Part shown: positions 6,461 through 29,470 of the stretch, in pieces | Position numbering within the stretch: the stretch's first letter is position 1 | Layout: each line of letters starts with the position of its first letter | Origin: an uncultured bacterium | GTDB lineage: Bacteria; CSSED10-310; CAZUFC01 | Direction of reading: 5' to 3' | DNA length: 29,737 nucleotides | Assembly (NCBI GenBank): GCA_964619725.1 | Contig: CAZUFC010000059.1 | Location: 21,038-50,774 of the forward strand | Made by a program: the position numbers and the translations under genes | The notes under the pieces: generated by a model | The model's input: the letters and a program-made list of their open reading frames with translations, nothing else | Told to the model about the DNA's origin: nothing | Databases searched by the model: none

Positions 6461-7054
6461 TCAATATTCCTGTCTTTCGCCCTTTTCCGGTTCACTGTTC
6501 ATTTCGGGCGGCGGGTTCCAGTATTCCTGCTCTTCATATTCCTCGTATTCACCTTCATATCTTTGACGCCTTTCTCCTTCCCAGGCCCGACGACTGCTGC
6601 CCGGCCCCGTTCGGTATTCCCTGACAGGCGCCAGTCTCTGATTCATGCGTATCTTCATGCCGGGTCTCACCAGAACCTCAATAATCAAAGGTTCATAACC
6701 TTCTAAATAGGCATCGATCCGATACTCCCCCGGCTCCAATACCAGATACTCCGGCCATCCGTCAAAATCATCCGCCGTCCCTACATACCTGCCGTCAACA
6801 TAAATCGCAGCCTCCTCAGGAGCTATATCCGTGTCGATCGCTCCCATCGCCGGAACAGGTCTTACAGGAGGCGGAGGGGGAACAGGAACCACCGGTATGG
6901 GCGGCAGCGGCGGAAACGGAAAAGGTATCCTCACGTTCACATGCCGACCGGCCCTCCGATAACGCCGACCTCGCCACGCCTCAGCCTCAGAACTTATTCC
7001 CAACGTTCCTATCAAAATCGTCGCTGTTATTAAAACAATCATTGCCTTTTTCAT
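6461..7054 (-). CDS. Exported PEGA-domain protein with Arg-rich and Pro-rich N-terminal region
   Basis: Signal peptide (ends AEA); poly-Pro linker; PEGA-like IAPEEAAIYVDGRYVG...LEPGEYRIDAYLEGYEP; AGGAGG RBS 5 nt before ATG 7054. Confidence 0.85.
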   Translation of the reverse strand: MKKAMIVLITATILIGTLGISSEAEAWRGRRYRRAGRHVNVRIPFPFPPLPPIPVVPVPPPPPVRPVPAMGAIDTDIAPEEAAIYVDGRYVGTADDFDGWPEYLVLEPGEYRIDAYLEGYEPLIIEVLVRPGMKIRMNQRLAPVREYRTGPGSSRRAWEGERRQRYEGEYEEYEEQEYWNPPPEMNSEPEKGERQEY

Positions 7055-7082
7055 CACTTCCTCCTTTCGCTCCCTTCATCAA

Positions 7083-7098
7083 AGCAATTCCCATACCA
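7083..7098 (-). promoter_or_regulatory. Candidate sigma54 (-24/-12) promoter of the PEGA gene
   Basis: Minus strand TGGTATG-GGAA-TTGCT matches TGGCACG-N4-TTGCW with exact GG/GC spacing, just upstream of the RBS. Confidence 0.6.
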
Positions 7099-7257
7099 AT
7101 CTTTGACAAAATAAGCCGGCTTCGATAGATGCTCCTTCTTCAATGAAAAATGGCTGTCGGTTCGGTTTCGCTGAATTGAAAAGATACGCAGCAGAACTGA
7201 AGCATGTAATCCAGCGAGGACAGGTGTGATATCTCGTTGAAACAAAGGCGAGAGAGG

Positions 7258-7345
7258 GGAAGGATGGAAGATTGGAAGGACTGGGAGATTGGATGGATTG
7301 GGGGGGATGGCAGAGTGGGAGGGAAGAAGAGCTGAAGAAATGGAG
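7258..7345. repeat. Degenerate 8-9-bp periodic purine-rich tandem array
   Basis: ggaaggat|ggaagatt|ggaaggact|gggagatt|ggatggatt|gggggggat|ggcagagt|gggaggga; almost no C on + strand. Confidence 0.75.
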
Positions 7346-7350
7346 AATGC

Positions 7351-7429
7351 ATGGCTTAGCTTTATTGCCGGGGCATTAAACTGGCATCCGCCCGTTGTCC
7401 CATGGGGTCGGAGCCCGACGCAAAGCCAT
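7351..7429. repeat. REP-like palindromic segment downstream of the amidohydrolase
   Basis: atggcttagc (7351-7360) pairs 9/10 with gcaaagccat (7420-7429); internal hairpin gtcgg-agc-ccgac (7407-7419). Confidence 0.35.
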
Positions 7430-7459
7430 ATACGTTATCTTACGTTTGTCGGCGGGTAT

Positions 7460-10400
7460 CTATGGTTCGCATCCCCATTCTACGGCTTCCCAGTTACCGA
7501 TAATTTGATTCATCTCTTGATTGAGCATCGCTCCGTAGAAATAAAGTCCATGGATTTCAACATTTCCGATATCAGGCCAGGTTATCGTGGGTATGACCTT
7601 TACAGGAGTCGTGCCCGTGGGTACGTTCATAATCTGATAATCGATTTCTTCCGATTCCGGCGGGTTATAATACTTCCAGCAAGGCCAGAACCAGTATTCT
7701 CCATAGATATCCATCAGGAAAAAAACGGGCACGTCGGTCATGGTATCGCCCGGATTATCGATATAAGCGTTTACAAAAAAATCATCCCCGGCATGAACGA
7801 CAGTCGGCATTTCCATTCTTACTCCCAGTTGCCAAACGATTGCACCGCCGATCAGGGTAATTTGAGGTAGAAATTTTCTTATAAAAGCATTGACGGTCGC
7901 CAGCCGTTCTGTATCCTGGACTCCCTCCGGCGTTCTGCCCAAAGTTTCCAAAGAAGTTCCTCCGGGCCCTCTTATACCCAGCGGATTCGCTTTCCAGATG
8001 ATCATATCGGCAAACCAGCCCGGACTTTCAGAACTTTCGCGAGGAACAGCGATGGCGCCCATTTCCTGGTCCAGGCCGGAAACGTATGCCGGCCAGAAGG
8101 TCATAGCGCTGAGCGCCTGTTCCACGGACAACCGCATGGGATTCGCCGGCGTTTGCGTCGTTAATCCCAGCGGACCGTATACTTTGCCGGCCAGATAATC
8201 GGTGGGTTTACAGGCAGGGTCCTCGCCGAATTTCCCGACCCAATCCGTCGGATTAATCTCAATGGGCGTTCTGGCGACGGCTGATATGAGAGTTATCACG
8301 GGTCTGGGATCGCGCACAGCCGGCGGATCGGTATCCAGCGCAAACGGAATATCATAATCCATGAACAGAGGACACGGCATATGATGATGCGACCGCGGCC
8401 TCCACGGTAAATTTCGCCAGAAACTGCCGATTTCGCAATCCGGTATTTTCCACAACTCCTGAGCATAAGGAAAGCCATTGTTTCTGATCGACTGTCCGTC
8501 CAATGCAAGAAGAGAAGGCTGAACTGAAAATACGACGTTTCTCGAATCGGGCGTCGTTTCTGAATCGATGCCGCCTGTACCTCTGATATCCTGAACAGCC
8601 CGGCATGACATGTTCAGAATATGCTCTATCCTGTATCGCTCATTGTCGAATTCACGGTCAACCAGCGATAAATCCGCATCCTCCGGTATTACGTCCTGCC
8701 AGTAAGAGGGAAGCTCTCCCCAGGTTTCGGGAAAATGCTCTACGTCATATTTCAGTTGCCTGATTATCCTGGCCCACACATCAACCGCTCCGTCTCCGAT
8801 GCAATGACATACCGTCTGACACGGCATGGGAACGCCTTCCGCCTTCGCTGCAGAACGCTCATAAAATATTTTCGCCGCTGCAGCCAGCGTCCTCTCATAG
8901 CCATCCTGAATCTGCTCTATCAGATCGCCCAGTTTTCCGGCCAGTTCAGCAGGCTGATCCCTCGGCGGATAACCCGATGTAATAAGTTCCACGTGATCAA
9001 GAGCATTCAGATCGTCCCGCAAATCCTGCTCGCTGATCTCCCTGTTCAGAAAACCGACTATCCCTTCCTTGAAAAAGGTCCAGTCGTTTTGCAGCGCATC
9101 GTTGTAATGCGGGGACGAGGGGTCCGATTCACGAACAAGCCAGTATAAGGCAGCCGTTTCACGACTCGTAAAAACCTGCTCCTGCAGATTAGTCATGGTC
9201 AGCAGGCCGTAGCTGTGATTGAGAAACGTCAGTGTATTGCCGTCTTCATCCTCCGTTTCGTAAGAATCATCCATACGAGCTTTCGCCATAGGGGCATTCG
9301 TGCAAAGCGTCCGGGCCCCTGTACCTCCGTCCAGTTGTATTTTCCATCCCAGCCACCTGACCCAACCGGGATACTCAGAATGCCCCGCCGGAGCCTGCAG
9401 CCGCTCCACGTCATATCCGTCTGTCGGACTATGCGCCAAACTCATTGTCTTCTGAACCTCTACTGCATTTTCAATGTAATAATAGAGGCCGACACGCAAA
9501 TTAAAAGGATCAGCGCTCGTCGGAACAGAATCTCGGTAACCCCGGCCGGCGCCTCCGTATCCCTCGCCGTGATCATACGACAGCGCTTCATAAGATTCAA
9601 ATTCATAAGTATTCGTCACACGGCGATAAAACATAATGTCGTTCACCGCGGTCACGCCATGCCTATGACACCAGTCTGCCAGCCTCCGGCGATGCTCCAT
9701 GCAATCTTCAACCGTCGGTTCATCAATGACGAAAGATGAAAGAGCATCCCTCATAACATAATGCTCGGCATAACCGCTGGGACGCCAGACGCCCGCTTCC
9801 GCATCATGAAAATACTGGATCAGGCCCCTTTCCGCTCCGTTATACCAGTTTGTGCCGTGAGGTTCCCTGGGGTCCCAGTCGCCGTAATCAAGCATTTCTT
9901 CACTGACGCTGTGATCAGCGTATTCCGCCGCATCCTGCCATTCAGCGTCCGTTATGCATTCAACAATCGTACGGTAAAAAGGAACCGCAGCCGCCGTAAA
10001 CTCAACTTCATTGAAAGCATCATAAGCCAGGTCCTCGATGAAAGGCCGTACCTTCAGCTCATGTTCTTCCGCATCACGGGATAGCGTCTGAAAAGGCACA
10101 TAAAGGTCTTCCCCCGGCGGATCATAAACCACTGCAATATCAATGGGATAAGGCGGCGCAAGCGACATAAGCTCGTTTAAATCCGGGTCTCCCGCATCAA
10201 GCCTGACAGTCCAATCATCTTCAGACGGTGACGGAGGTGAAATCGACAGAACCGATACCTCGTCAAATTTCTCGCCTAACTCGTTTTCCTGGTAATCGTT
10301 AAATGCCTCCAGCGTTTCTGAATTATACCAGCATGCCTGTCCGCTGGTATGGACCAGTACCGCCGCAGTGCTCTCATACGTTACGGGCGGCCATTCTGAT

Positions 10401-11278
10401 GGATCGGAATTGCATGGATCGCCGGGCGGTTCCTGCGGCGCTCCCGGACCCCGGCCGATACGGTTTAACAGATATACGTCATTATAAGTATTATGGTTAC
10501 AGTCGCCCCCGAATTCATACAAAAAAGTGCTCGGAAATTCATCATCGCCGATCGGTTCATCTATTTCCGTAAACCAGTAACCATGAAGGTATATGCTGTC
10601 CTTGTCCATCTCAGCAATGTGTCGATTCGCATCAGCGACTATGCTCCAAAGCGCCTCCCTTACGCATACCCGGCCCCAAGTCTCTACGTCCGTATAATAA
10701 GCAGGGTCGCCTACATCCGCCCAGAAACCGAATGTGTTTCCGGCCGCAGGTATCTTCTTTGACCAGCTCGTTACGTGAAAGTGATCGTCGATCATCCCCG
10801 GAGTTACTACCGCTCCCTGCAAATCGACAGGTTCAAACCCCGTTAACAGCTCTTCATCAACGCCTTCCGCACGCCAGTAATTCATTATTTCCGTTATAGT
10901 GACCCCTGGAGCCGGCGGATGCTCCATCGTCAGAAGGTCCGGATACTCGGAAACCGGCTTCGCCGTCAACCAACCGGGACCGGGATTCCCCGGCAAGGAC
11001 GGATAAATAGCCGCTATGCGTCCGTTATCAGGATCGATCAAAACGGCATGCAGAACATACAATCGATAACGATCGGCCTTGCTTGCTGCATCCAATGCTG
11101 AAACAGGGTCTACCGTCAAAAAATAACCGTTATACAAACACCGTAAACGCTCCGCAGCATCCGCACCATATCCGGTAAATTCCTCGAATTCCCTTTCTGC
11201 TCTACAGATTCCCTCGATGCCTGACAACGCTATGCAAAAAATAACTGCTGCCGATGCCGAAATTGCTGAAACTTTCAT
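7460..11278 (-). CDS. Large exported metal-dependent amidohydrolase (amidohydrolase_3/YtcJ-like) with extra C-terminal domain
   Basis: Signal peptide-like N-terminus; family motifs in order: DLQGAVVTPGMIDDHFH, HTSGQACWYNS, GVTAVND, KIQLDGGTGART, HCIGDGAV, RYRIEH, SVQP, ALDTDPP, LSVEQALSAMT..PAY...EMGAI, ADM. Confidence 0.85.
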   Translation of the reverse strand: MKVSAISASAAVIFCIALSGIEGICRAEREFEEFTGYGADAAERLRCLYNGYFLTVDPVSALDAASKADRYRLYVLHAVLIDPDNGRIAAIYPSLPGNPGPGWLTAKPVSEYPDLLTMEHPPAPGVTITEIMNYWRAEGVDEELLTGFEPVDLQGAVVTPGMIDDHFHVTSWSKKIPAAGNTFGFWADVGDPAYYTDVETWGRVCVREALWSIVADANRHIAEMDKDSIYLHGYWFTEIDEPIGDDEFPSTFLYEFGGDCNHNTYNDVYLLNRIGRGPGAPQEPPGDPCNSDPSEWPPVTYESTAAVLVHTSGQACWYNSETLEAFNDYQENELGEKFDEVSVLSISPPSPSEDDWTVRLDAGDPDLNELMSLAPPYPIDIAVVYDPPGEDLYVPFQTLSRDAEEHELKVRPFIEDLAYDAFNEVEFTAAAVPFYRTIVECITDAEWQDAAEYADHSVSEEMLDYGDWDPREPHGTNWYNGAERGLIQYFHDAEAGVWRPSGYAEHYVMRDALSSFVIDEPTVEDCMEHRRRLADWCHRHGVTAVNDIMFYRRVTNTYEFESYEALSYDHGEGYGGAGRGYRDSVPTSADPFNLRVGLYYYIENAVEVQKTMSLAHSPTDGYDVERLQAPAGHSEYPGWVRWLGWKIQLDGGTGARTLCTNAPMAKARMDDSYETEDEDGNTLTFLNHSYGLLTMTNLQEQVFTSRETAALYWLVRESDPSSPHYNDALQNDWTFFKEGIVGFLNREISEQDLRDDLNALDHVELITSGYPPRDQPAELAGKLGDLIEQIQDGYERTLAAAAKIFYERSAAKAEGVPMPCQTVCHCIGDGAVDVWARIIRQLKYDVEHFPETWGELPSYWQDVIPEDADLSLVDREFDNERYRIEHILNMSCRAVQDIRGTGGIDSETTPDSRNVVFSVQPSLLALDGQSIRNNGFPYAQELWKIPDCEIGSFWRNLPWRPRSHHHMPCPLFMDYDIPFALDTDPPAVRDPRPVITLISAVARTPIEINPTDWVGKFGEDPACKPTDYLAGKVYGPLGLTTQTPANPMRLSVEQALSAMTFWPAYVSGLDQEMGAIAVPRESSESPGWFADMIIWKANPLGIRGPGGTSLETLGRTPEGVQDTERLATVNAFIRKFLPQITLIGGAIVWQLGVRMEMPTVVHAGDDFFVNAYIDNPGDTMTDVPVFFLMDIYGEYWFWPCWKYYNPPESEEIDYQIMNVPTGTTPVKVIPTITWPDIGNVEIHGLYFYGAMLNQEMNQIIGNWEAVEWGCEP

Positions 11279-11498
11279 TCCTGATGCCCCCTTACTTAAA
11301 TCTCCTCAGTCGTTAGTCCAGAAGATGAAAATCACCTCCCAAAACCTGGATATTTTGATCATCGCTGAAAAAAGAGGTTAAAACTGACATGAAACCCCGT
11401 TTGCAAAGCATCCTTGTCCGTGTTGCTAATGCGGTAATTGATCAGCTCCTGGCCGTGAAAGACTAATCATCCGCCATCCAGCATAAAGCATCCCGCAA

Positions 11499-12313: not shown

Positions 12314-12431
12314 TTCTTTGTTCCGCCTTGTCTCCTTGAAACTGAATTATCCTTGAAACGTCAGCCGGCTCTTACCCAATATCAGTTTTATTTTGGTTGA
12401 GTCAATTCTGTTTTACATGTTACCCATTGTC

Positions 12432-12459
12432 TTGAATTTTTTCATTAAGTTGGTAAAAT
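12432..12459 (+). promoter_or_regulatory. Candidate sigma70 promoter of the peptide ABC operon
   Basis: TTGAAT-16 nt-TAAAAT with extended -10 TG, immediately upstream of the GGAGG RBS. Confidence 0.4.
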
Positions 12460-12479
12460 ACGCCCGGAGGAAATTCTCC

Positions 12480-14447: not shown

Positions 14448-14535
14448 GGCGGAATTCCCGTGATGAAGCGCAATGAATAATGGAAGTCACAGCTATCGAA
14501 ATAAGGACATCTTGAAAGATTAAGGAAAAAACACT

Positions 14536-16446: not shown

Positions 16447-16465
16447 TCTAAGGAGGGGAGACAGC

Positions 16466-17479
16466 ATGGCTTTTATTGACGATCTGACGCGAAGACGGCT
16501 CCGAGCCTTCAGAAAAAGACAGACGGCTTTCTATTCGCTCATTATTTTCCTGCTTATGTTCGTCGTCGGCATGGGCGCTGACTTTATCGCCAACGACAGA
16601 CCTTATGTCATGAAATACCAGGGCGAATTATATTTTCCCATCCTTTTCGATTACCACCCCGAAGAATTCGGCAACGAATGGGCCCTCCATATGGACTACA
16701 AGCAATTCCAAAGCGACCATCAGGATGCGTGGATGCTCTTTCCCCCCATCTCTTGGGGCCCCTTCACCATCAATAAATTCGTGGAAGAATACCCCTCGCC
16801 GCCTTCCTGGGAAAATATCCTGGGAACCGACGACAGAGGTCGCGATGTCGCCTCCAGGCTCATATACGGATTCCGCAATTCCATGATCTACGCCCTGGGC
16901 GTCTGGATTCTCAGCTTCATCATCGGCATCATTTTCGGCGGCATTCAGGGATACTTTGGAGGTAAAGTGGACTTCGCCGGACAACGCCTCATAGAAATTT
17001 ACAATTCCATTCCTTATTTCTTCCTCCTGCTGATACTGATCTCCATCTTTCAACCCAACGTCTGGCTCCTGGTCGCCCTTTCATCAATCTTCGGATGGGT
17101 CAATATATCGCTCTACATGAGAGCCGAATTTCTGCGCCTGAGAAAATTCGATTTCGTGGAAGCCAGCCGCGCCCTCGGCATGAAACACGGCAACATCATC
17201 TTTAAACAGATACTCCCCAACGCACTCAACCCCGTCATCACATTCTCCCCCTTCCGTATCGCAGGCGGAGTCGTCGCTCTCGCCAGCCTCGACTACCTCG
17301 GTTTCGGACTCGCTCCGCCCGCCGCTTCCTGGGGAGAATTGCTGGGACAGGCCCATAAATACTACGACATCGCTCCCTGGCTCATGTTCTCCACTCTCAT
17401 CGCCATCTTCGGCACCGTCAGCCTCCTTAATATGATAGGCGAAGGCGTCAGAACCGCCTTCGATCCCAAGAAATATTGA
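16466..17479 (+). CDS. yejE: Peptide ABC transporter permease, YejE/OppC-like
   Basis: IANDRPYVMKYQGELYFP, PSPPSWENILGTDDRGRDV, EAA loop FVEASRALG, SLDYLGFGL, SWGELL, GEGVRTAFDPK; AAGGAGG RBS. Confidence 0.88.
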   Translation: MAFIDDLTRRRLRAFRKRQTAFYSLIIFLLMFVVGMGADFIANDRPYVMKYQGELYFPILFDYHPEEFGNEWALHMDYKQFQSDHQDAWMLFPPISWGPFTINKFVEEYPSPPSWENILGTDDRGRDVASRLIYGFRNSMIYALGVWILSFIIGIIFGGIQGYFGGKVDFAGQRLIEIYNSIPYFFLLLILISIFQPNVWLLVALSSIFGWVNISLYMRAEFLRLRKFDFVEASRALGMKHGNIIFKQILPNALNPVITFSPFRIAGGVVALASLDYLGFGLAPPAASWGELLGQAHKYYDIAPWLMFSTLIAIFGTVSLLNMIGEGVRTAFDPKKY

Positions 17480-17523
17480 TGCCGCTGCAACGCGCCGGAT
17501 CAACGAAAATAACGGGAGGAAAA

Positions 17524-18140: not shown

Positions 18141-18259
18141 TAACAAACCCGAAAATCGAAATAATCAAAATGCCCGGATTTCCAAAACCAAATGATAAGC
18201 AATCAAACCCGAATGCCTTTATCGTCAACCTGGAAAAGCAAAAAAACTAAAATCTCCCC

Positions 18260-18293
18260 GTCCTTTATGTCCTTTAAGTCCCCTTGTCGTTTC
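18260..18293. repeat. Degenerate 9-bp periodic tandem array
   Basis: gtcctttat|gtcctttaa|gtcccctt|gtcgtttc downstream of vapC. Confidence 0.65.
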
Positions 18294-18369
18294 GCCCTTC
18301 AATAAATCCAGCCGATCATACTGACCGGTCACAGTCGCAACAGTTCCAATACCCATGCGGGAAAAGCGC

Positions 18370-18777: not shown

Positions 18778-18781
18778 GGCA

Positions 18782-19474: not shown

Positions 19475-19617
19475 TTTTCCCTGAATTTTTCAGCCGAATG
19501 ACGGGTATCGCCGTCTCATCGGCTTAAAACGTTAGAAAATTACCGGTAAAACGATAAAAACGCCGAATCTTTCCCCGATTTCTTAACAATACCCCGTGTT
19601 TCTGATTAACAAACTCT

Positions 19618-20145: not shown

Positions 20146-20189
20146 TAAATATAAAGAAAGAAAAAATATCGAAATAAATTGATTATACC

Positions 20190-23100: not shown

Positions 23101-24872
23101 TGGTTGGCTGCTGATGCAATGCGTTGATAATAGGAGAGTCGGTCTTCTTCCCGTTGCATGGATTCCGTTTTCATTAGGGGTTCTTCAGGATCGGGCGTTA
23201 TAAGCAGCACATTGTAATCCCTGCCGTCTCCCACCAGGAAGGTTTGCTTTATACCCGGCACATCGACGAATTTCTGTTCGACACGCCTGGGAGCCACTGT
23301 TTGTCCGCGATTATTTTTATATATATCTTTTATTCTGTCGACGATTTCATAGTGCCCGTCCTCACGCTTTCGAAACAGATCGCCGGTAGGCAGCCAGTAA
23401 TCATCGTCAAACGGGGGAATCCTCCACGAAGGTTCCTGATGATCGTCGAACGTATCCAGGTAACGGGCGATATAAGGACCGGAAATGAGCAGCTCTCCTT
23501 TTTCAGTAGACCGCAAATAAGCGCCGGGCAGCGCTTTACCCACGGAATTGTCCTGGTATTCTCCCGGAGGCGTCATAGTCAATCCGCCGGTAGCCTCAGT
23601 CATGCCGAAGCCGCTGCATAACGCCGTACCGTTCCGGTGAAAAAAATGAAATACGCCGGGGTCCAGGTATCCTGCAGCGGACAATCCCCATCTCAACCGC
23701 CCGCCCGTCAACTCGTCGAATATCTTTTTTTGCAACTCCAAAGATGCCGTTTGTCCCCCCTTTTCAATGCACTCATCACGCAATTGAATCCAACGAAGAG
23801 GTATCCCGATCAGACCCGTAGGACGCGCTTCCGGAAGACAGCGTAACAAAGCCTCGAAAGAAGGATTGCCTGAAAAGACATAAGTTCCGCCCCAGTAGAT
23901 CATTCCCAGCATCTCCAGAAAACGTCCGAACGTATGATAAAGCGGCAGATAACACAACAGAGTTTCATCACGTCCTACTCCAGGAAGCGCCGCAGCCCTG
24001 GCGAACCGCTTGGTCACCATGTTGAATTGCGAAAAACATACTCCCTTCGGCTTTCCCGTGCTCCCGGAAGTAAACAGTGCCGATGCGACTTCATCTACCG
24101 GCTTTCTGCGGCGGGACGACAACAAAGATTCAATATCAGCGGCAGAAAGCAGGGAACAAGCCTCTCCCAGATAATAATCCTCATCACGAAGCTCATCGTT
24201 GTCCTTATCCGTGACAAATATCTGAAAAGGCGTTTCAACTCTTGAAGAAACCTTCATCAAACGACGCAGGCGGTCCCGGGAATCGGTCACAGCGATATTT
24301 ATTCCAAGCTTGTTAAATATATGCGTCAAAGTCTCCTCATCAAAATGAACATTCAAGGGAACCGTAAGTATGTCATAAAACAGGCATCCCAGATCAGCAC
24401 AAGCCCCATCCGCACAGTTTTCAAGAAATATAACGACACGGGGTTCTTTTCTGCTCTTATAAAAAGCCGCCGCTATCCGCCGCGTATAACGATCGACATC
24501 GGCATAATTCCATTGGCGCTGAAACGAATTCACCGACTCCTCAAACAATACCCTTTCAGGCGACTCTTCCGCACGCTGTCGGAATAAATCCAGCAAATTA
24601 TAATCAGAATGAAAAACAGCCTTGAATACCGTCTCAGCCCAACGCTCCCGCAACTCATATTCCCCCAGACTAAGCAAAAACCGCGGCCGCCCGGTATAAT
24701 TCAAATACTCATGCCAGACCGAAGACTCGACTTTTTCACCAACGCCACGCTCCCACATATCCTCAGCAAGCGATAAAACCTGTAAAGCCTCCGCCGGCAA
24801 TAGTTCTTCAGAATGAATATCCTCTTTAAAAGCCCGTAACTTTTCAATCAATCTCACCGCCATAGCCCCCAT
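20190..24872 (-). CDS. Multidomain protein: long-chain acyl-CoA-synthetase-like adenylation domain, large central region, C-terminal GNAT acyltransferase
   Basis: AMP-binding motifs FTSGSTGKPKG, YLPLYH, GFGMTE, TGD, VDRIKD, ELTPKGSFKR; GNAT motif A SRGIGSALL and FYLKRNF at the C-terminus. Confidence 0.9.
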   Translation of the reverse strand: MGAMAVRLIEKLRAFKEDIHSEELLPAEALQVLSLAEDMWERGVGEKVESSVWHEYLNYTGRPRFLLSLGEYELRERWAETVFKAVFHSDYNLLDLFRQRAEESPERVLFEESVNSFQRQWNYADVDRYTRRIAAAFYKSRKEPRVVIFLENCADGACADLGCLFYDILTVPLNVHFDEETLTHIFNKLGINIAVTDSRDRLRRLMKVSSRVETPFQIFVTDKDNDELRDEDYYLGEACSLLSAADIESLLSSRRRKPVDEVASALFTSGSTGKPKGVCFSQFNMVTKRFARAAALPGVGRDETLLCYLPLYHTFGRFLEMLGMIYWGGTYVFSGNPSFEALLRCLPEARPTGLIGIPLRWIQLRDECIEKGGQTASLELQKKIFDELTGGRLRWGLSAAGYLDPGVFHFFHRNGTALCSGFGMTEATGGLTMTPPGEYQDNSVGKALPGAYLRSTEKGELLISGPYIARYLDTFDDHQEPSWRIPPFDDDYWLPTGDLFRKREDGHYEIVDRIKDIYKNNRGQTVAPRRVEQKFVDVPGIKQTFLVGDGRDYNVLLITPDPEEPLMKTESMQREEDRLSYYQRIASAANQELAPYERVVNIAVLDRDFDAEHGELTPKGSFKRKVIEKNFKEVIERLYEKAFVELKKGRLTVRIPRWFFRDLGILESDIIFQDNALYDKNRELTLKLEKMKNGNILIGDLEYRIKEDIVDMGLFSRKPGLWTGNPSLILFSPCKEGWYVPFGPVSEQIFLPFRAKMETSVPVEFPLSQIRDQRLVKINDLSVKALFGSPDNSRAAVQEMESLLKEADDRTGRLITSRLGALSHHPSEEIRSLAYRIILVEDPTPDYGKVFPEFVYSGLSFLNEESIQILAEKNIEKRRLDALRKRLHSYRTQLQWPADPTVRKQFKHIFVLLTQFVQNNISYYSSVRAELAAWALHQEDKELAETAHQTLMGLGEWFDARIERKISGYSAAEWMKRIVFDESISGYEVEKLKKLVAGTTFLHKSLMLAFNEEIFDLNDVKEGGIWITRLQSGREINKYLASIRTESGRHFNLLISMQEKGIKEMIMEDNYWFLAVAGYPHGDSPLPRLGSFRPEMGAMSLAYIKGLTVWERLREYDGIRSTPAATQRKRFLQKLFTRAISAYYSGLKSSEFKIIPGSVDPMNTVVPEPDFRIGSRILSVLGWTEYRNTLDLVKPLVKNFYRKTAAFYPWTEALLESSWIFDAAMESLGSDAAPAFFSKLQEDLKRENIAMNDGELSARLDDYLEKIKTMYFAPLALTSAIDRFKMWEKANPEATHEARANLVDELYRLYRIDRHPATARFALFRHTYFDHAGSNVTQAFSRLLRKMHHSPDTPPTVMTELSDLQALLTNQKDRDVFSKMIFPRTARIRHAEALAVGEAETRHVIVRTQITDKEGREYYVYEPTRASEIGRLYRMFLEQHYPKTISQQDRFFVAVDSLERIIGGISYKILDDEVSAHLDGVVVENTLSSRGIGSALLEDFCARMHNQGIKIVKTFYFIPEFYLKRNFKLDKRWGGLVRFLEDEDEDSSGLVSLAEDAEQE

Positions 24873-25102
24873 GAGTTACAACTTCCTTTCCGCGTTACAA
24901 AAAATTTACCTTCACCCGCCTTTCAGAATATCAAAAACAATAAACCGGCAAAAGCTGAACGGATGCAAGGAAAGTCAATTCGTGATAAAACGCTTCTCGC
25001 TCGAAGAAAGAATATAATGAAATCTTGCCCATTTATACCAAAGAATGATAAAAAACTTTCAGAACATGCGTCCGGCCCGGCGCGAAAGAAGAAGGAGTCG
25101 TC

Positions 25103-26164
25103 ATGAGCAAGATAAGTCTTTTTACCTGGTTTCCTCCATTGAAGAAAAAACTGCCTCACATATCGATCATAGAGGCGCCGACGCCTTTGGAAAAGCTGAC
25201 GCGGCTGGGTGAAAGCCTGGGGCACGACCAATTATGGGTCAAACGCGATGATGCCACGGTTAAACCTTACGGCGGCAATAAACCGAGGAAACTGGAATTT
25301 TTACTCGGCGATGCGAAACAGAGACGCGCTTCAGCCGTAGCCACGACAGGCGGCATAGGTTCCAATCACAGCCTGGCGACGACCATTTACGCCGGCAAGC
25401 TGGGTTTTCCCGTGCACCTCATACTCGTTCCCCAACCTGTGACGCCGCATGTCAGAATGAGTCTCCGGCTGTTCATTCATTTCGGCGCCCATTTGCATCT
25501 TTGTCCGGAATATGAGGAGGTAATGCAGCAGGTTGAGCGATTGCAGCGGAACATCGAAGGTCTATATTTCATACCGGCAGGCGGATCGAATGCACTGGGC
25601 GCGCTGGGATTCGTCAATGCCGCTTTGGAACTGGCCGACCAGACAACGCAACGGATAATGCCGGAACCGCAGGCCCTCTTCGTTCCTGCAGGCACCTGCG
25701 GCACGCTCGCCGGGTTAGCCCTGGGATTCAAAATCGCTCGTTTGAATACGAAAATATACGGCGTCAGGGTCGTCGACACATCCGTCACCAATGCCGATAC
25801 CGTCCTGGAATTAATGGACGGTTCGTGTAAAATTCTTCGAGACCTGACCCAGGATATTCCCAGGGTTAAAATAAATCAAAGCAATTTTGAAATACTCGAA
25901 GGTTACTTCGGGGAAACGTACGGTCAGGTCACCCCTGAAGGCATAGAGGCCAAAGAAATAATGAGAAAAACCGAAGATATCCCCCTGGAAACCACTTACA
26001 CCGCTAAAACGGTCGCTGCAATGAAAGACTATATTGACGAGTCGCTTCAGAAAAGACCGCTTTTATATTGGAACACCTTTGCCGGACCTGTACTGGAAAA
26101 GGAAGCGAAAACGGTCGGAATGGACCGCATACCCGAAGATTTTAAACAATTTTTCAAGGATTAA
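25103..26164 (+). CDS. PLP-dependent D-cysteine desulfhydrase/ACC deaminase family enzyme
   Basis: PTPLEKL, WVKRDD, PLP Lys motif GGNKPRKLE, GGIGSNH, IPAGGSNALG.LGFV.AALEL, GTCGT.AGL, LETTYTAK; AAGGAG RBS. Confidence 0.9.
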   Translation: MSKISLFTWFPPLKKKLPHISIIEAPTPLEKLTRLGESLGHDQLWVKRDDATVKPYGGNKPRKLEFLLGDAKQRRASAVATTGGIGSNHSLATTIYAGKLGFPVHLILVPQPVTPHVRMSLRLFIHFGAHLHLCPEYEEVMQQVERLQRNIEGLYFIPAGGSNALGALGFVNAALELADQTTQRIMPEPQALFVPAGTCGTLAGLALGFKIARLNTKIYGVRVVDTSVTNADTVLELMDGSCKILRDLTQDIPRVKINQSNFEILEGYFGETYGQVTPEGIEAKEIMRKTEDIPLETTYTAKTVAAMKDYIDESLQKRPLLYWNTFAGPVLEKEAKTVGMDRIPEDFKQFFKD

Positions 26165-26185
26165 TACTCAAAAAGAAGGACAAAA

Positions 26186-28408
26186 ATGAAACCGGTATAT
26201 CTCGACTATAACGCCACCACTCCCATAGACAAAGAAGTCGCTGAAGCCATGCAACCTTACCTGACCGAACATTTCGGGAATCCTTCCAGTTCCCACTGGT
26301 TCGGCATACAGACGAAAAAGGCGGTGGAAAAAGCCAGGGCTCAATCAGCCGAACTTTTAGGATGCGACATTGATGAAGTAATATTTACCAGCGGGGGAAG
26401 CGAATCGAACAATTACGCGATTAAAGGCGCTGCCATGGCTTATCGGAATCGAGGCGATCACGTCATTACGACAGCCGTGGAGCATCCGGCAGTGCTGGAA
26501 GTATGCCGGTATCTGGAGATGAACGGTTTTCGCATTTCAGTCGCTCCGGTAGACCGGCACGGTATGGTCAGCGTCCAGGAAATCGAAAAGCTCATAACCC
26601 CGCAGACAATACTGATAACGGTCATGCACGCCAACAATGAAGTAGGAACCATACAACCGGTCCGTGAGATTGCGGAAACCGCGAAAAAAAATGGAATACT
26701 CATGCACACGGATGCGGCTCAATCCGTGGGAAAAATTCCCGTAAACGTAAACGAGCTGGGAGTCGACCTGCTCTCGGCAGCCGGACACAAGTTTTATGCG
26801 CCCAAAGGCATCGGCGCTTTGTTTATCCGGCGAGGAACCGAACTGGAAAAACTGGTTCATGGTGCAGACCATGAGCAGAACAGGCGAGCCGGCACGGAAA
26901 ACGTCCTGGAGATCGTGGGAATAGGAAAAGCGGCTGAAATAGCGAAACGTGATTTAAACAAAAACAGTGAACATATGAAACGCATGCGGGACAGGCTGCA
27001 TGAAGGATTAAAAGAAAACTGCCGGAACATAGCCTTGAACGGTCATCCGGAAAAACGCCTTCCCAATACTTTAAGCATTGGTTTCAGAGGTATAGAAGCG
27101 AATACGCTGTTGTCCGAGCTGGAAGACGTCGCCGCATCGGCCGGCGCCGCCTGTCACGCTGACCAGGTTGATGTCTCATCGGTCCTGGAAGCAATGAAAA
27201 CCCCGGTAGAATACGCCATGGGAACCGTGCGTTTTTCAACGGGAAAGCTGACGACTGCCGATGAAGTAGACCGGGCAGTAAACAGGATATCAGAAGCGGT
27301 AAAACGCTTAAGTCCCCGGGAAACAGAAGATGAACCCGTTGTATTAACCGGAACGGGAGATGACGTTAAACTGACGCATTTTACTCACGGGCTGGGTTGC
27401 GCCTGTAAAATTCAACCTCAGTCGCTGGAAAAAATACTGGAAAAACTGCCGGTACCGACCGATCCCTCAATCCTGGTCGGTGCAGAAACCTCAGACGATG
27501 CAGCAGTTTACAGACTCTCTGATAACCTGGCTGCCATATTGACGCTGGATTTTTTTACTCCCATAGTAGATTCGCCCTACTATTTCGGCGCCATAGCTGC
27601 CGCCAACGCTCTAAGCGACATATACGCCATGGGCGGAAAGCCGGTTATGGCCCTGAATATAGTAGGATTCCCGGCCGCCAGATTACCCCTGACCATCCTG
27701 GAAACCATCCTGAAAGGAGCCTCCGACAAAGCTGAAGAAGCCGGCATAAGCATCCTGGGCGGACATACCGTGGACGATACGGAACCCAAATACGGCATGG
27801 CCGTTATGGGCATCTTATCTCCGGACGCTATTATAACCAATCGCAATGCTCAACCCGGAGATGCCCTCATACTGACAAAACCCCTCGGAACAGGAATAAT
27901 CACCACGGCCGGCAAACGCGGCCTGGCCGATGAACGAACCATGAATGAAGCCATTGAAATAATGAGCGCCCTCAACCATAAAGCCGCACAGACAATGATG
28001 AATTATCCGGTCAATGCCTGCACGGATATTACAGGCTTTGGACTGATGGGTCACCTCAAGGAAATGACACAGGGCAGCCGGACTGATGCCGTAATTTACG
28101 CCGAAAAAACTCCCATTATACCGAAAGCAAGAGACTTCGCCGCCGCCAATGTTGTGCCGGGCGGTTCCCTGAGTAACGTTCAGTATGTTTCAACAATCGT
28201 CGATTGGGATAAATCAGTTTCACAACTGGATAAAATATTGCTGTGTGATGCTCAAACTTCCGGGGGCCTGCTGATCTCATTGCCGGCGCAATATGAAGAA
28301 AGCTTCTTACAGGAATTGAAAAAACAGGGAATAAAAAACGCCGCAGGCATAGGATACATCCTCCAGAACGGATCAGGAAAAATAAACGTTAAATCGATGA
28401 AGGAGTAA
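26186..28408 (+). CDS. selD: Fusion of NifS/IscS-type cysteine desulfurase (selenocysteine lyase-like) and selenide, water dikinase
   Basis: N-half: YLDYNATTP, GNPSS, FTSGGSE, EHPAV, HTDAAQ, GHKFYAPKG, RAGTEN, SAGAACH. C-half: GCACK, DDAAVY, DFFTPIVD, ANALSDIYAMGG, GGHT, TDITGFGL.GH, DAQTSGGLL. Confidence 0.95.
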   Translation: MKPVYLDYNATTPIDKEVAEAMQPYLTEHFGNPSSSHWFGIQTKKAVEKARAQSAELLGCDIDEVIFTSGGSESNNYAIKGAAMAYRNRGDHVITTAVEHPAVLEVCRYLEMNGFRISVAPVDRHGMVSVQEIEKLITPQTILITVMHANNEVGTIQPVREIAETAKKNGILMHTDAAQSVGKIPVNVNELGVDLLSAAGHKFYAPKGIGALFIRRGTELEKLVHGADHEQNRRAGTENVLEIVGIGKAAEIAKRDLNKNSEHMKRMRDRLHEGLKENCRNIALNGHPEKRLPNTLSIGFRGIEANTLLSELEDVAASAGAACHADQVDVSSVLEAMKTPVEYAMGTVRFSTGKLTTADEVDRAVNRISEAVKRLSPRETEDEPVVLTGTGDDVKLTHFTHGLGCACKIQPQSLEKILEKLPVPTDPSILVGAETSDDAAVYRLSDNLAAILTLDFFTPIVDSPYYFGAIAAANALSDIYAMGGKPVMALNIVGFPAARLPLTILETILKGASDKAEEAGISILGGHTVDDTEPKYGMAVMGILSPDAIITNRNAQPGDALILTKPLGTGIITTAGKRGLADERTMNEAIEIMSALNHKAAQTMMNYPVNACTDITGFGLMGHLKEMTQGSRTDAVIYAEKTPIIPKARDFAAANVVPGGSLSNVQYVSTIVDWDKSVSQLDKILLCDAQTSGGLLISLPAQYEESFLQELKKQGIKNAAGIGYILQNGSGKINVKSMKE

Positions 28409-28412
28409 TCAG

Positions 28413-28883
28413 ATGCTGAACCTCGATATACCCGGTTTCGGAAAGATGGAACTGGAACATGCCGTTTTCGACTACAACGGCACTTTGGCGGTGGACGGTA
28501 AATTGATCCAGGGCATAACCGAACGCCTGGAAAAACTGTCCCAAATCCTGGTGGTTCACGTAGTAACCGCAGACACATTCGGCCTGGCCGCAAAGGAAAC
28601 GAAAAAATTCCCCTGCCGCCTTCACATACTGGAAAAAAATCAAGAAGAAACGCAAAAACTCGATTACATAAAAAAATTGAATAAAATAAAAACCGCCGCT
28701 GTAGGAAACGGAGCCAACGACAGGATGATGCTGAAACAGGCCCGCCTGGGCATAGCGGTAACAGGCCCTGAAGGAGCAGCCCAGGAAACATGCCGCGCCG
28801 CAGACATAATAGTCCCCGACATAGCCGCAGCCATAAATTTATTATTGAATCCCAAAAGAATAAAAGCCACACTCAGATGTTGA
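28413..28883 (+). CDS. Small HAD-superfamily hydrolase (soluble P-type ATPase-like)
   Basis: Motif I FDYNGTLAVDG, motif II TADTFG, motif IV VGNGAND, C-terminal PKRIKATLR; AAGGAG RBS overlapping the selD stop. Confidence 0.9.
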   Translation: MLNLDIPGFGKMELEHAVFDYNGTLAVDGKLIQGITERLEKLSQILVVHVVTADTFGLAAKETKKFPCRLHILEKNQEETQKLDYIKKLNKIKTAAVGNGANDRMMLKQARLGIAVTGPEGAAQETCRAADIIVPDIAAAINLLLNPKRIKATLRC

Positions 28884-28924
28884 TTCTCAAACACGATTAA
28901 ACCAGTAAAGAAAATAATAGGGCG

Positions 28925-29039
28925 CTGATCAAAAATGGCCATGTCAGGGTTACAATTTCTCAGTTTGAAACCCTCGTGCTCGTGCTCAGTGCAGCGGTAA
29001 TCGTAATCGAAACATTGGTCTGATCTGTACAGTCGTTTG
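28925..29039. repeat. 115-bp direct repeat, copy 1, containing 6-bp periodic core (ctcgtg)n...(gtaatc)n
   Basis: 110/115 identical to 29471-29585. Confidence 0.95.
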
Positions 29040-29069
29040 AAAGCAAAGCAGGGCAATCATCTTAATCGA

Positions 29070-29107
29070 TCGATTACGATGACGAGCGCCGCTCCGCTGA
29101 GCAAGAA
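29070..29107. repeat. Inverted, diverged copy of the 6-bp periodic core
   Basis: tcgattacgatgacgagcgccgctccgctgagcaagaa resembles the reverse complement of 28973-29010 (tcgattacgattaccgctgcactgagcacgagcacgag). Confidence 0.75.
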
Positions 29108-29470
29108 AGTTCTTTTTGAGTATCGAGATCACAATTTGTAACCCCTGTTTGATCAGTTCCGTCAGAAGAACACATATCTCCTCGTAATTATTTGTTGCGA
29201 TACCGATAACGACGCCGAGACAAACGGCCATCGATGTAAAAATTTTTGCCGGCATATCGGCTTGCTTTTTTGATTGTTGTAGAGGGGGAGTCAGATTGGG
29301 TTATTTTTGAGCTGGTCAGGGGTATAGTTGGGTTATATTTTGGCTGGTTGGGGGAATCACCTCCTTTACATATCCTGACATTGACCGGTAAAATTTTTGA
29401 ACAGTTTAAACAACACACAACAAGATTATAAAATTTCGGGATTGATCAAACCGGGGTTACACTTTTTTCA

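What the first reader, a model, noticed from the sequence alone, without database searches (positions are those of the whole stretch)
6461..29400. Saw-tooth strand skew: + strand turns C/A-rich approaching intergenic boundaries and G/T-rich leaving them, regardless of gene direction
Seen (hand counts on selected 60-nt lines): inside one gene (20190-24872), 20881-20940 has G25/C11 but 24601-24660 has G8/C19; within the + strand ABC operon, 12841-12900 has G18/C15 but 17221-17280 has G11/C26. The bias sits in synonymous positions: the 3' part of yejE, vapC and the HAD gene use almost only C/A-ending codons, while the PEGA gene and the 5' end of the 1560-aa gene use mostly G/T-ending codons. Switch points (~7100-7250, ~18200, ~29000-29250) coincide with the short-period repeats; others (~20150, ~24900) have no visible repeat. 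The polarity is that of a replication origin, but repeated every few kb. Inference: a local strand-asymmetric mutational process (e.g. nicking/resection or repair synthesis primed at these sites). Caveats: lines were hand-picked, and the TonB gene 3' end next to the 1-530 repeats shows no clear bias.
Basis: partly seen in the sequence, partly recalled or inferred. Interest (0 to 1): 0.7.

Follow-up and report, generated by a model that had tools for sequence, protein, structure and literature searches.

The report
Operon-anchored G/C skew saw-tooth
In this bacterial genome every transcription unit starts G-rich and ends C-rich on its coding strand, a real and unusually strong genome-wide pattern that is tied to operon ends and not to the small repeats.

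Summary
[quoted passage not shown] is reverse-complement symmetric. It simply means each unit's coding strand runs from G-rich (5') to C-rich (3'). At four-fold sites the first third minus the last third of a unit is +0.249 (1668 units). All 119 of 119 testable contigs show it, as do 623 of 699 units of at least 3 kb.

The unit is the operon, not the ORF. There is no reset across gaps of 100 nt or less, and a full reset across gaps over 200 nt. The best fit is two edge effects: +0.29 decaying over 1.4 kb from the start, and -0.23 over 1.7 kb before the end. The change is a G-for-C swap, with A and T nearly flat.

It is independent of tandem repeats, neighbour orientation and contig-scale strand skew. 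Of eleven other genomes, two show a weaker form, three the opposite sign, and six none.

The mechanism is unresolved. I favour a transcription-linked mutation bias (0.4) over selection on RNA composition for Rho (0.28).

The parts
6461..7057 (-). PEGA-domain gene, a short unit. The coding strand is strongly G-rich at third positions and falls 5' to 3'.
   Evidence: Pfam PEGA. Third-position coding GC skew by thirds is +0.74, +0.53, +0.28.
7058..7459 (.). Boundary between two - strand units (402-nt gap). It holds a G-rich (+ strand) low-complexity tract at about 7245-7335 and a 17-nt repeat of 2.7 copies at 7258-7302.
   Evidence: Sequence read; TRF; the tract is unique in the genome by blastn (1 hit). 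The + strand third-position skew changes from about -0.3 to -0.7 (PEGA) to -0.08 (the 3' third of the next gene).
7460..11278 (-). 1272-aa amidohydrolase-like gene, a single-gene unit that follows the gradient.
   Evidence: Pfam Amidohydro_3. Coding third-position skew is +0.23, +0.21, +0.08.
12314..12392 (.). Divergent boundary between the ECF sigma gene and the ABC operon. This is a clear C-to-G switch on the + strand.
   Evidence: The cumulative third-position GC sum has a local minimum near 12500 (-257) and then rises. See also the profile.
12393..17479 (+). Three-gene ABC transporter operon (solute-binding protein and two permeases). One continuous gradient runs through it, with no reset at the internal junctions 14448-14535 and 16447-16465.
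   Evidence: Pfam SBP_bac_5 and BPD_transp_1 x2. Coding third-position skew runs from +0.11 in the first third of gene 1 to -0.70 in the last third of gene 3.
18141..18369 (.). Convergent gap after VapC, holding a 9-nt repeat at 18260-18281.
   Evidence: TRF. The + strand third-position skew is about -0.45 in the last third of VapC and -0.33 in the adjacent orf135 3' third.
20146..20189 (.). Convergent boundary with a 44-nt gap and no repeat. This is a clear switch.
   Evidence: The cumulative third-position GC sum has a local minimum at about 20000 (-536) and rises to -504 by 21000.
20190..24872 (-). 1560-aa AMP-binding/GNAT gene, a single-gene unit that follows the gradient.
Evidence: Pfam AMP-binding and Acetyltransf. 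Coding third-position skew is +0.33, +0.04, -0.04.
24873..25102 (.). Divergent boundary with no repeat. The slope of the + strand skew changes from steeply negative to about flat.
   Evidence: Cumulative third-position GC sum: -576 at 24500, -622 at 25000, -620 at 25500.
25103..28883 (+). Three-gene unit (PALP enzyme, NifS-SelD fusion, HAD-like protein) with a continuous gradient.
   Evidence: Pfam. Coding third-position skew runs from +0.03 in the first third of gene 1 to -0.36 to -0.42 in the HAD gene.
28920..29050 (+). Copy of a dispersed repeat of about 130 nt, with a second copy at about 29471-29594.
   Evidence: blastn against the genome gives 52 hits at about 87-100% identity, many at contig ends. 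Sequence read.

Best explanation
Shown. The saw-tooth is a genome-wide compositional gradient anchored on transcription units. Reading 5' to 3' on the coding strand, synonymous sites begin G-rich and end C-rich. It is the sum of two edge effects. One is strongest at the start of the unit (amplitude +0.29 in GC skew at four-fold sites, decay length about 1.4 kb). A mirror-image one is strongest at the end (amplitude -0.23, decay about 1.7 kb). The middle of long operons sits near zero. The gradient runs through operons, stops at the stop codon of the last gene, and extends about 100-250 nt upstream of the first start codon. It adds linearly to a separate contig-scale strand skew.

Inferred (preferred mechanism). 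A transcription-linked, strand-asymmetric substitution bias affects DNA whose nascent RNA is not yet, or never, covered by ribosomes. Two kinds of RNA qualify. One is sense RNA in the first kb or so, before ribosomes couple to the polymerase. The other is antisense or read-through RNA that enters a unit from its 3' boundary. Either can leave the displaced strand, the one running 5' to 3' away from the boundary, exposed until Rho stops the polymerase about 1.5 kb in. That strand becomes G-rich. This genome shows no enrichment of hairpin-plus-T terminators after gene ends, so such transcripts should be common. The small tandem repeats are bystanders of non-coding DNA.
For: Scale and generality:
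- Gene deciles: four-fold GC skew falls from +0.19 to -0.09.
- Units: first third minus last third is +0.249, bootstrap 0.236-0.262, n=1668.
- 119 of 119 contigs with at least 5 units are positive.
- 623 of 699 units of at least 3 kb are positive.

The unit is the operon:
- Across tandem junctions with gaps up to 20 nt the flanks read +0.037 and +0.054 (n=502).
- Across gaps over 300 nt they read -0.124 and +0.221 (n=351).
- In two- to four-gene units the decline continues gene after gene.

Two edges:
- Long units decay to about 0 and dip again at the end.
- The two-exponential model beats the start-only, relative-position and linear models: AIC 802773 against 805275, 803224 and 806842, on 584,299 sites.

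Transcript-like limits:
- Upstream non-coding DNA is G-rich out to about 100-250 nt, while DNA after stop codons reads 0 to +0.05.

Not codon- or tRNA-specific:
- All 8 four-fold families shift, positions 1 and 2 shift the same way, and two-fold sites follow.

Same coarse signature as the contig-scale strand skew, which cannot come from selection on RNA:
- Both are G for C with A and T flat, and NNR sites shift more than NNY sites. The edge effect is about 1.6 times larger.
- The two edges mirror each other relative to the unit middle.

Other support:
- No enrichment of hairpin-plus-T terminators after gene ends: 20% on the sense strand against 21% on the antisense control, n=400.
- Rho is present.
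- Background: in E. coli, untranslated antisense RNA forms R-loops when Rho is inhibited (PMC5909445, abstract read).
- Amplitude is larger in units with native-like codon usage (rho 0.31), as expected for a slow cumulative process.
Against: No substitution was polarised, so mutation and selection are not separated.

The 3' edge is nearly as strong next to convergent neighbours (B 0.20-0.22) as next to tandem neighbours (B 0.24-0.25). The model therefore needs antisense RNA of similar strength from terminator-only gaps and from promoter-bearing gaps, and that is not shown.

The near-equal amplitude of the two edges and the near-zero middle are natural for a symmetric process. Under this model they are a coincidence.

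Cytosine deamination alone cannot make the pattern. The pyrimidine share at four-fold sites rises from 0.457 to 0.558 while T hardly moves, so a G:C to C:G type asymmetry of unknown chemistry is required.

The fine neighbour-context profile of the edge effect does not correlate with that of the contig-scale skew (r=0.22, p=0.22, 32 contexts).

The highly expressed ribosomal-protein cluster shows no larger effect (one unit, noisy). Units with low GC at four-fold sites, like ribosomal-protein genes, show smaller effects.

Mfd and RNase HI are present, so no obvious repair loss explains the lineage specificity.

Same-phylum genomes that also seem to lack terminators (G006, G010; only 18 gene ends each) show no gradient.
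Confidence: 0.4

Rival explanations
1. Selection on the composition of nascent RNA linked to Rho. RNA that approaches the end of a unit is kept C-rich and G-poor, so Rho can load. This applies to sense RNA near the 3' end and to antisense RNA near the 5' end. RNA leaving a boundary is G-rich, so it resists Rho. This would insulate neighbouring units in a genome without intrinsic terminators.
For: The axis is exactly G versus C with A and T flat, which is the composition Rho reads. C-rich rut sites are from the abstract listing of PMC10670590 and from recalled knowledge.

Selection naturally 'knows' both ends of a unit. It explains the near-symmetry (A 0.29, B 0.23, middle 0.02) and the independence from neighbour orientation.

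There is no terminator enrichment after gene ends and Rho is present.

The gain of C towards 3' ends is stronger after a pyrimidine (log-odds 0.62-0.71) than after G (0.39). The mirror holds for G followed by a purine.

The required selection is weak: the G/C odds ratio between the two edges is about 2.1.
Against: Sense RNA inside coding regions is covered by ribosomes, and C-richness 1-2 kb before the stop codon would favour premature termination.

Non-coding DNA after the stop codon, where rut sites are expected, is not C-rich (0 to +0.05).

Sites followed by C, where a C would create a YC dimer, show the weakest shift.

The same coarse signature appears in the contig-scale strand skew, which cannot be selection on RNA.

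Relatives and E. coli have Rho but show no gradient or the opposite one.
Confidence: 0.28
2. One reading: a DNA-level process starts in intergenic DNA, at the short repeats, and moves outwards on both sides. Candidates are nicking and resection, repair synthesis, or origin-like firing.
For: The polarity is origin-like and close to symmetric. The coarse signature equals that of the contig-scale skew. The decay length of about 1.5 kb is of the order of a repair or synthesis tract (inference).
Against: The jump is as large at the 784 of 1128 boundaries without any TRF repeat.

Gaps of 41-100 nt give no jump and gaps of 101-200 nt give +0.21. This is a threshold, not a dose response.

Non-coding DNA next to stop codons has a skew near 0 where such a process should act most strongly.
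Confidence: 0.07
3. Replication-fork explanation: preferred Okazaki priming or fork restart at unit boundaries changes how long the lagging-strand template stays single-stranded.
For: The decay length of 1.4-1.7 kb resembles bacterial Okazaki fragment length (recalled). The coarse signature is the same as that of the contig-scale skew.
Against: The model predicts that, read along the G-rich strand, the dip before a boundary exceeds the overshoot after it by the plateau value. In the 22 contigs with contig skew of 0.12-0.30 the plateau is 0.162, yet A is 0.225 and B is 0.240. The saw-tooth has full size in the 20 contigs with contig skew below 0.04.
Confidence: 0.04
4. Translation-level selection (a codon ramp, or rising codon optimality along genes) or amino-acid composition.
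For: C- and A-ending codons rise towards 3' ends. Weak gradients of this kind are described for E. coli genes (passages of PMC2777431).
Against: There is only a bump of about +0.05 at ORF starts inside operons, and the main trend crosses ORF junctions. All eight four-fold families and positions 1 and 2 shift alike. The 5' untranslated DNA shares the bias. The scale is kilobases.
Confidence: 0.03

Closest known systems
[quoted passage not shown]
   Same: The GC skew changes sign between the start and the end of transcribed units. The AT skew is roughly uniform. Four-fold sites and amino-acid usage are both affected. C-to-T deamination is judged insufficient. Mutational and adaptive readings are both left open.
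   Different: The sign is opposite: fungi are C-biased at the 5' end and G-biased at the 3' end. [quoted passage not shown] Here the unit is a bacterial operon, the bias stops at the stop codon, and four-fold sites respond three to four times more than positions 1 and 2.
Replication-associated skew jumps: bacterial origins, and the 'factory-roof' N-domains of mammalian genomes (recalled from memory, not read here)
   Same: There is an upward jump of G over C at a boundary and a decline towards the next one, and the pattern is reverse-complement symmetric.
   Different: The period here is one transcription unit (a few kb). The pattern is independent of and additive to the contig-scale strand skew. 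Junctions inside operons do not jump.
Bidirectional strand asymmetries that originate at CpG islands or transcription starts in the human genome (PMC2817419; only the search listing and the start of the abstract were seen)
   Same: Strand asymmetry emanates in both directions from promoter regions and decays with distance.
   Different: Here an equally strong edge sits at terminator-only (convergent) boundaries. The organism is a bacterium.
Intragenic nucleotide and codon gradients in E. coli (Hooper and Berg 2000; not held; known only through a citing passage in PMC2777431)
   Same: Synonymous nucleotide use drifts along genes.
   Different: In my own measurement on 300 kb of E. coli K-12 the unit gradient is -0.079 (-0.123 to -0.041). 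That is the opposite sign and one third the size.
Rho utilisation (rut) composition: C-rich, G-poor RNA (abstract listing of PMC10670590; details recalled)
   Same: The variable that changes is exactly C against G in the transcript.
   Different: rut sites are about 80-nt stretches, usually in untranslated RNA. Here a graded bias spans 1-2 kb of translated sequence, and the untranslated DNA after the stop codon is not C-rich.

Membership tests
Replication-origin type skew switch | The sign and size of the local switch depend on the direction of fork movement. | tested here: not met
   The edge amplitudes are the same in contigs with contig-scale skew of 0-0.04 and 0.12-0.30. B minus A is 0.015 where the model needs 0.16.
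Replication-origin type skew switch | An upward G-over-C jump at the site, read 5' to 3' on either strand. | tested here: met
   Jumps of +0.09 to +0.47 occur at all 12 boundary classes with gaps over 100 nt.
Gene-anchored opposite GC skews (fungal type) | [quoted passage not shown] | tested here: met
   A is +0.287, B is 0.229 and the middle is 0.02.
Gene-anchored opposite GC skews (fungal type) | C-biased 5' end and G-biased 3' end. | tested here: not met
   The sign is reversed in this genome. G003, G004 and E. coli have the fungal sign.
Gene-anchored opposite GC skews (fungal type) | The AT skew is roughly uniform along the unit. | tested here: met
   The four-fold AT skew is -0.13 to -0.08 along deciles, against a GC skew change of 0.28.
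Translational ramp or codon-optimality gradient | The gradient restarts at every ORF. | tested here: not met
   Across overlapping or touching ORFs (n=176) the skew goes 0.02 then 0.08 and keeps falling.
Rho-dependent terminator (rut) signal | A C-rich, G-poor untranslated stretch downstream of the last stop codon. | tested here: not met
   The mean GC skew in the first 250 nt after stop codons is 0 to +0.08 in coding orientation. Single examples exist, such as the - strand of 7245-7335.
Rho-dependent terminator (rut) signal | Termination depends on Rho activity. | not testable with these tools
   The organism is uncultured and no RNA run is listed.
   Jumps with versus without a TRF repeat: tandem 301-1500 nt, 0.384 vs 0.289; divergent 301-1500 nt, 0.377 vs 0.467; convergent 101-300 nt, 0.093 vs 0.154.

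The most novel reading that the evidence does not exclude
Transcription-unit boundaries in this lineage act as a genome-wide, two-sided composition code tied to Rho. Any RNA polymerase leaving a boundary writes G-rich, Rho-resistant and R-loop-prone RNA. Any polymerase approaching a boundary writes C-rich, Rho-sensitive RNA. The bias may reinforce itself: exposure of the displaced strand makes it G-rich, and that lengthens the exposure. It would then replace intrinsic terminators as the means of insulating operons. That would be an unreported organising principle of bacterial genomes, one that outweighs replication in shaping strand composition.
Probability: 0.2. Interest if true: 0.85.

Novelty: new variant of a known kind. 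Interest (0 to 1): 0.62.

Why it matters
Strand composition in bacteria is usually read as a record of replication, with transcription adding a uniform offset per gene. In this genome a position-dependent, operon-anchored component is larger: edge amplitudes are 0.23-0.29, against contig-scale values that are mostly below 0.2.

This has practical consequences. Skew-based calls of origins, of gene inversions and of leading or lagging strand would be distorted in such genomes. Operon boundaries could be predicted from composition alone.

It also has conceptual value. The gradient has two mirror-image edges, a G-for-C signature and a sign that varies between lineages. That gives a natural system for separating transcription-linked mutation from selection on nascent RNA, which the fungal case left open.

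Tried and rejected
- Chance or hand-picking: rejected by the genome-wide counts.
- Artefact of my crude gene calls: unlikely. The pattern is reverse-complement symmetric, so a wrong-strand call keeps its sign. The same pipeline gives flat profiles in six other genomes.
- Tandem repeats as the cause: rejected.
- Per-ORF translational cause: rejected.
- Okazaki priming or fork restart: rejected.
- Antisense RNA only from the downstream neighbour's bidirectional promoter: not supported, because B is similar at convergent boundaries.
- Loss of Mfd or RNase HI: both are present.
- Expression dependence: no usable proxy. Ribosomal-protein genes differ from the genome mainly by lower GC at four-fold sites (0.507 against 0.585). 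The single ribosomal-protein cluster is noisy, and the correlations are confounded with gene age.
- YC-dimer (Rho) context test: mixed. It is supported by the preceding base and contradicted by the following base.
- Shared fine-context fingerprint with the contig-scale skew: not found (r=0.22).
- RNA evidence: no RNA holder is listed. Read laying was not used, because the four listed DNA runs are kept as contigs, which show neither strand nor rare variants.
- The search of earlier findings returned nothing for this genome.
- Literature: five answered full-text searches found no description of an operon-anchored, two-edged skew in bacteria. Hooper and Berg 2000 is not held. Supplements were not consulted.
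Full report
WHERE THE WINDOW LIES

The window is G000:C59:21038-50774 and runs to the end of a 50.8-kb contig. The draft genome has 9.17 Mb in 344 contigs and 47% G+C. Its completeness is 90.9% and its contamination 6.5%.

Its Rho protein is 74-79% identical to Rho of Acidobacteriota assemblies. The genome library lists only 13 genomes as 'same phylum' and none closer. Four DNA runs of one study, labelled microbial mat metagenome, hold the stretch, and no RNA run is listed.

Pfam names the window's genes: a TonB-dependent receptor, a tricorn-like protease, a PEGA protein, a 1272-aa amidohydrolase-like protein, an ECF sigma factor, a three-gene ABC transporter, a PIN/VapC protein, a 1560-aa AMP-binding/GNAT protein, a PALP enzyme, a NifS-SelD fusion and a HAD-like protein.

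CHECKING THE OBSERVATION

The key logical point is about symmetry. A + strand that is C-rich before a boundary and G-rich after it, 'regardless of gene direction', is unchanged by reverse complementation. It is therefore the same statement as 'every coding strand runs from G-rich at its 5' end to C-rich at its 3' end'.

I called 5279 ORFs of at least 100 aa with a codon log-likelihood filter, covering 82% of the genome. I then measured coding-strand skews by position.

Over gene deciles (genes of at least 900 nt), the GC skew falls as follows:
- Third positions: +0.12 to -0.13.
- Four-fold sites: +0.19 to -0.09.
- Position 1: 0.32 to 0.24.
- Position 2: -0.10 to -0.18.
- The AT skew at four-fold sites stays between -0.13 and -0.08.

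WHAT THE UNIT IS

The amplitude grows with gene length, which pointed to end effects. Junctions between co-directional genes settle the matter.

| Junction type | Flank 1 (four-fold GC skew) | Flank 2 | n |
|---|---|---|---|
| Tandem, gap up to 20 nt | +0.037 (upstream 3' flank) | +0.054 (downstream 5' flank) | 502 |
| Tandem, gap 21-100 nt | +0.004 | +0.038 | 265 |
| Tandem, gap 101-300 nt | -0.103 | +0.130 | 327 |
| Tandem, gap over 300 nt | -0.124 | +0.221 | 351 |
| Divergent pairs, 5' ends | +0.229 | +0.189 | 307 |
| Convergent pairs, 3' ends | -0.094 | -0.069 | 287 |

In fine bins the trend crosses touching ORFs with only a +0.05 bump. The jump behaves as a threshold in gap length: about 0 up to 100 nt, +0.21 at 101-200 nt, and +0.32 to +0.36 above that. 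In two-, three- and four-gene units the decline continues from gene to gene.

I therefore defined units as runs of co-directional genes with gaps of at most 100 nt. That gave 3392 units. I dropped the 286 within 300 nt of a contig end, leaving 3106.

SHAPE OF THE GRADIENT

In units longer than 6.5 kb the skew falls from about +0.3 to about 0 within roughly 2.5 kb. It stays near 0 and then falls to about -0.15 in the last 2 kb.

A fit on 584,299 G or C four-fold sites gives:

skew = 0.02 + 0.287 exp(-x/1407) - 0.229 exp(-(L-x)/1722)

AIC values are 802773 for this model, 803224 for a relative-position model, 805275 for a start-only model and 806842 for a constant slope.

The amplitudes hardly depend on the neighbours. 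A is 0.31 with a divergent and 0.27-0.28 with a tandem upstream neighbour. B is 0.20-0.22 with a convergent and 0.24-0.25 with a tandem downstream neighbour.

Outside the coding run the bias ends abruptly:
- After stop codons the skew is 0 to +0.05.
- Before start codons it is +0.26 in the last 25 nt (the ribosome-binding region).
- It is 0.10-0.15 out to 100 nt and about 0 by 250 nt.

SIGNATURE

Between the first and last octile of units of at least 2 kb (n=1250):
- C at four-fold sites rises from 0.220 to 0.343.
- G falls from 0.345 to 0.257.
- T falls from 0.237 to 0.215.
- A is flat.
- All eight four-fold families shift.
- At two-fold sites C/(C+T) rises from 0.42 to 0.53 and G/(A+G) falls from 0.50 to 0.33.

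At four-fold sites, however, the change is a G-for-C swap. The pyrimidine share rises from 0.457 to 0.558, which transitions alone cannot produce.

HOW GENERAL IT IS IN THIS GENOME

- All 119 contigs with at least 5 units show a positive first-minus-last difference, with a median of 0.25.
- Among 699 units of at least 3 kb, 623 are positive. The mean is 0.326 and the true between-unit spread is about 0.22.
- The size of the effect rises with native-like codon usage (rho 0.31) and with GC at four-fold sites (rho 0.21).

RELATION TO LARGE-SCALE STRAND SKEW

Contigs differ in an orientation-independent four-fold GC skew. Its standard deviation is 0.10 over 80 contigs of at least 40 kb, the range is about -0.16 to +0.22, and it has no AT partner.

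The unit gradient simply adds to this offset:
- Units on the G-rich strand run from 0.29 to 0.00.
- Units on the C-rich strand run from 0.09 to -0.28.

The window's contig has -0.159 on the + strand. This explains why its + strand genes look C/A-ending and its - strand genes look G/T-ending. It also explains why several 'switches' in the window are changes of slope and not changes of sign.

A model in which forks prime or restart at unit boundaries makes a specific prediction. Read along the G-rich strand, the dip before a boundary should exceed the overshoot after it by the plateau value. In the 22 most skewed contigs the plateau is 0.162, while A is 0.225 and B is 0.240. That model fails.

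REPEATS

TRF finds only tiny arrays in the window. Across the genome, TRF rows are three times enriched in non-coding DNA.

Of 1128 boundaries with gaps of 101-1500 nt between genes of at least 900 nt, 784 have no TRF row of score 30 or more. These show jumps of +0.14 to +0.47. The 344 boundaries with a repeat show +0.09 to +0.38, with no consistent direction of difference. The repeats are bystanders.

The G-rich tract at 7245-7335 is unique in the genome. The element of about 130 nt at 28920-29050 belongs to a dispersed family with 52 hits.

OTHER GENOMES, SAME PIPELINE

The statistic is first third minus last third of units, with a bootstrap over units.

| Genome | Value | 95% interval | Data |
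|---|---|---|---|
| G000 (this genome) | +0.249 | 0.236 to 0.262 | 1668 units |
| G001 | +0.100 | 0.065 to 0.135 | 467 kb |
| G002 | +0.104 | 0.055 to 0.161 | 327 kb |
| G003 | -0.123 | excludes 0 | |
| G004 | -0.105 | excludes 0 | |
| E. coli K-12 | -0.079 | excludes 0 | 300 kb |
| G005, G006, G010, G029, G030 | near 0 | includes 0 | |
| G007 | near 0 | includes 0 | |

Of eleven other genomes, two share the sign at about 40% of the size, three have the opposite sign, and six show nothing. The samples are small and the relatives are not independent.

CLUES TO THE MECHANISM

Rho is present, and so are Mfd and RNase HI.

Hairpin-plus-T terminator-like sites are no more frequent after gene ends than on the opposite strand: 20% against 21%, n=400. 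They are enriched in an unrelated genome, G030: 29% against 12%, n=42.

The contig-scale contrast and the unit-edge contrast share a coarse signature:

| Measure | Contig-scale contrast | Unit-edge contrast |
|---|---|---|
| Four-fold dC | -0.076 | -0.125 |
| Four-fold dG | +0.066 | +0.092 |
| Four-fold dA | +0.001 | +0.011 |
| Four-fold dT | +0.009 | +0.021 |
| NNY sites | -0.055 | -0.100 |
| NNR sites | +0.109 | +0.172 |

The two edges mirror each other relative to unit middles.

At the level of 32 neighbour contexts, however, the two contrasts do not correlate (r=0.22).

A test for Rho's preferred YC dimers is mixed. The gain of C is stronger after a pyrimidine, and the mirror holds for G before a purine. 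Yet sites followed by C shift least.

The ribosomal-protein cluster (C63:32235-48172) shows no larger effect, but it is a single unit cut by the contig end.

INTERPRETATION

What is shown is an operon-anchored, two-edged G-for-C gradient. It is independent of repeats, of neighbour orientation and of the large-scale strand skew.

What is inferred is its cause. I favour a transcription-linked substitution bias acting where nascent RNA is not covered by ribosomes. That means sense RNA before ribosome coupling at the 5' end, and antisense or read-through RNA entering at the 3' end. The displaced strand would stay exposed until Rho stops the polymerase.

This accounts for several features:
- the transcript-like limits of the bias;
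- its continuity through operons;
- the abrupt end at the last stop codon;
- the neutral middle of long units;
- the kb-scale decay;
- the coarse likeness to the contig-scale skew;
- the apparent lack of intrinsic terminators.

It also fits the E. coli evidence that untranslated antisense RNA forms R-loops when Rho is inhibited (PMC5909445, abstract).

Its weak points are these. It needs similar antisense input at convergent and tandem boundaries. The near-equal edge amplitudes would be a coincidence. The G:C to C:G chemistry is unknown. The fine-context likeness to the contig-scale skew is missing.

The main rival is weak selection on transcript composition for or against Rho loading. It explains the symmetry and the pure G/C axis more naturally. 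It fits poorly with ribosome shielding, with the neutral DNA after stop codons, and with relatives that have Rho but no gradient.

Without polarised variants the two cannot be separated.

COMPARISON WITH WHAT IS KNOWN

The closest description I found is for unicellular fungi (PMC3315797; abstract and passages read). There the coding strand is C-biased at 5' ends and G-biased at 3' ends. The AT skew is uniform, four-fold sites are affected, deamination is judged insufficient, and the cause is left open. That is the opposite sign to this genome.

Five answered full-text searches turned up no bacterial, operon-level counterpart. The E. coli gradient paper of Hooper and Berg is not held. My own E. 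coli measurement is small and of opposite sign.

I therefore file this as a new variant of a known kind of feature: gene-anchored GC skew.

Noticed in passing
window 28920-29050 and about 29471-29594: Two direct copies of an element of about 130 nt. It has 52 blastn hits across the genome at about 87-100% identity. Many hits lie at contig ends and some form inverted pairs a few kb apart. It is probably a small mobile element or IS terminus that breaks the assembly.
   Followed up: partly
window 1-60 and 362-420: A direct repeat of about 60 nt upstream of the TonB receptor gene. The first copy has 5 blastn hits in the genome.
   Followed up: partly
window 7245-7335: A G-rich, purine-rich low-complexity tract on the + strand (C-rich on the - strand). 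It lies 130-210 nt downstream of the - strand amidohydrolase-like gene and looks like a single rut-like stretch. It is unique in the genome. It also creates a probably spurious + strand ORF at 7289-7870.
   Followed up: partly
window 3049-6354: The tricorn-like protease gene runs against the genome's rule, with coding third-position skew of -0.24, -0.06, -0.01. The region just before and at its start (2701-3300) has the highest all-site GC skew in the window (+0.31). It could be a recent arrival or a mis-set start.
   Followed up: no
window 26186-28408: A 740-aa fusion of a class-V aminotransferase (NifS/selenocysteine-lyase-like) with selenophosphate synthetase-like AIRS domains. It sits between a PALP enzyme and a HAD-like gene.
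   Followed up: no
window 20190-24872: A 1560-aa protein with an N-terminal AMP-binding (acyl-adenylate) module, a C-terminal GNAT acetyltransferase, and about 800 residues in between without a Pfam match.
   Followed up: no
whole genome G000: Hairpin-plus-T-tract terminators are not enriched after gene ends (20% sense against 21% antisense, n=400). The sampled same-phylum genomes look alike, whereas an unrelated genome (G030) shows enrichment.
   Followed up: partly
whole genome G000, 80 contigs of at least 40 kb: The contig-scale four-fold GC skew varies continuously from about -0.16 to +0.22 and is not bimodal. It has no AT-skew partner. Gene-strand bias is weak, with about 56% of unit bases on the G-rich strand.
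   Followed up: partly
G003, G004 (same phylum) and E. coli K-12 loci L174-L179: These genomes show a significant unit-level gradient of the opposite sign (-0.12, -0.105, -0.08). Position-dependent GC skew along operons may therefore be widespread, with a sign that varies by lineage.
   Followed up: partly
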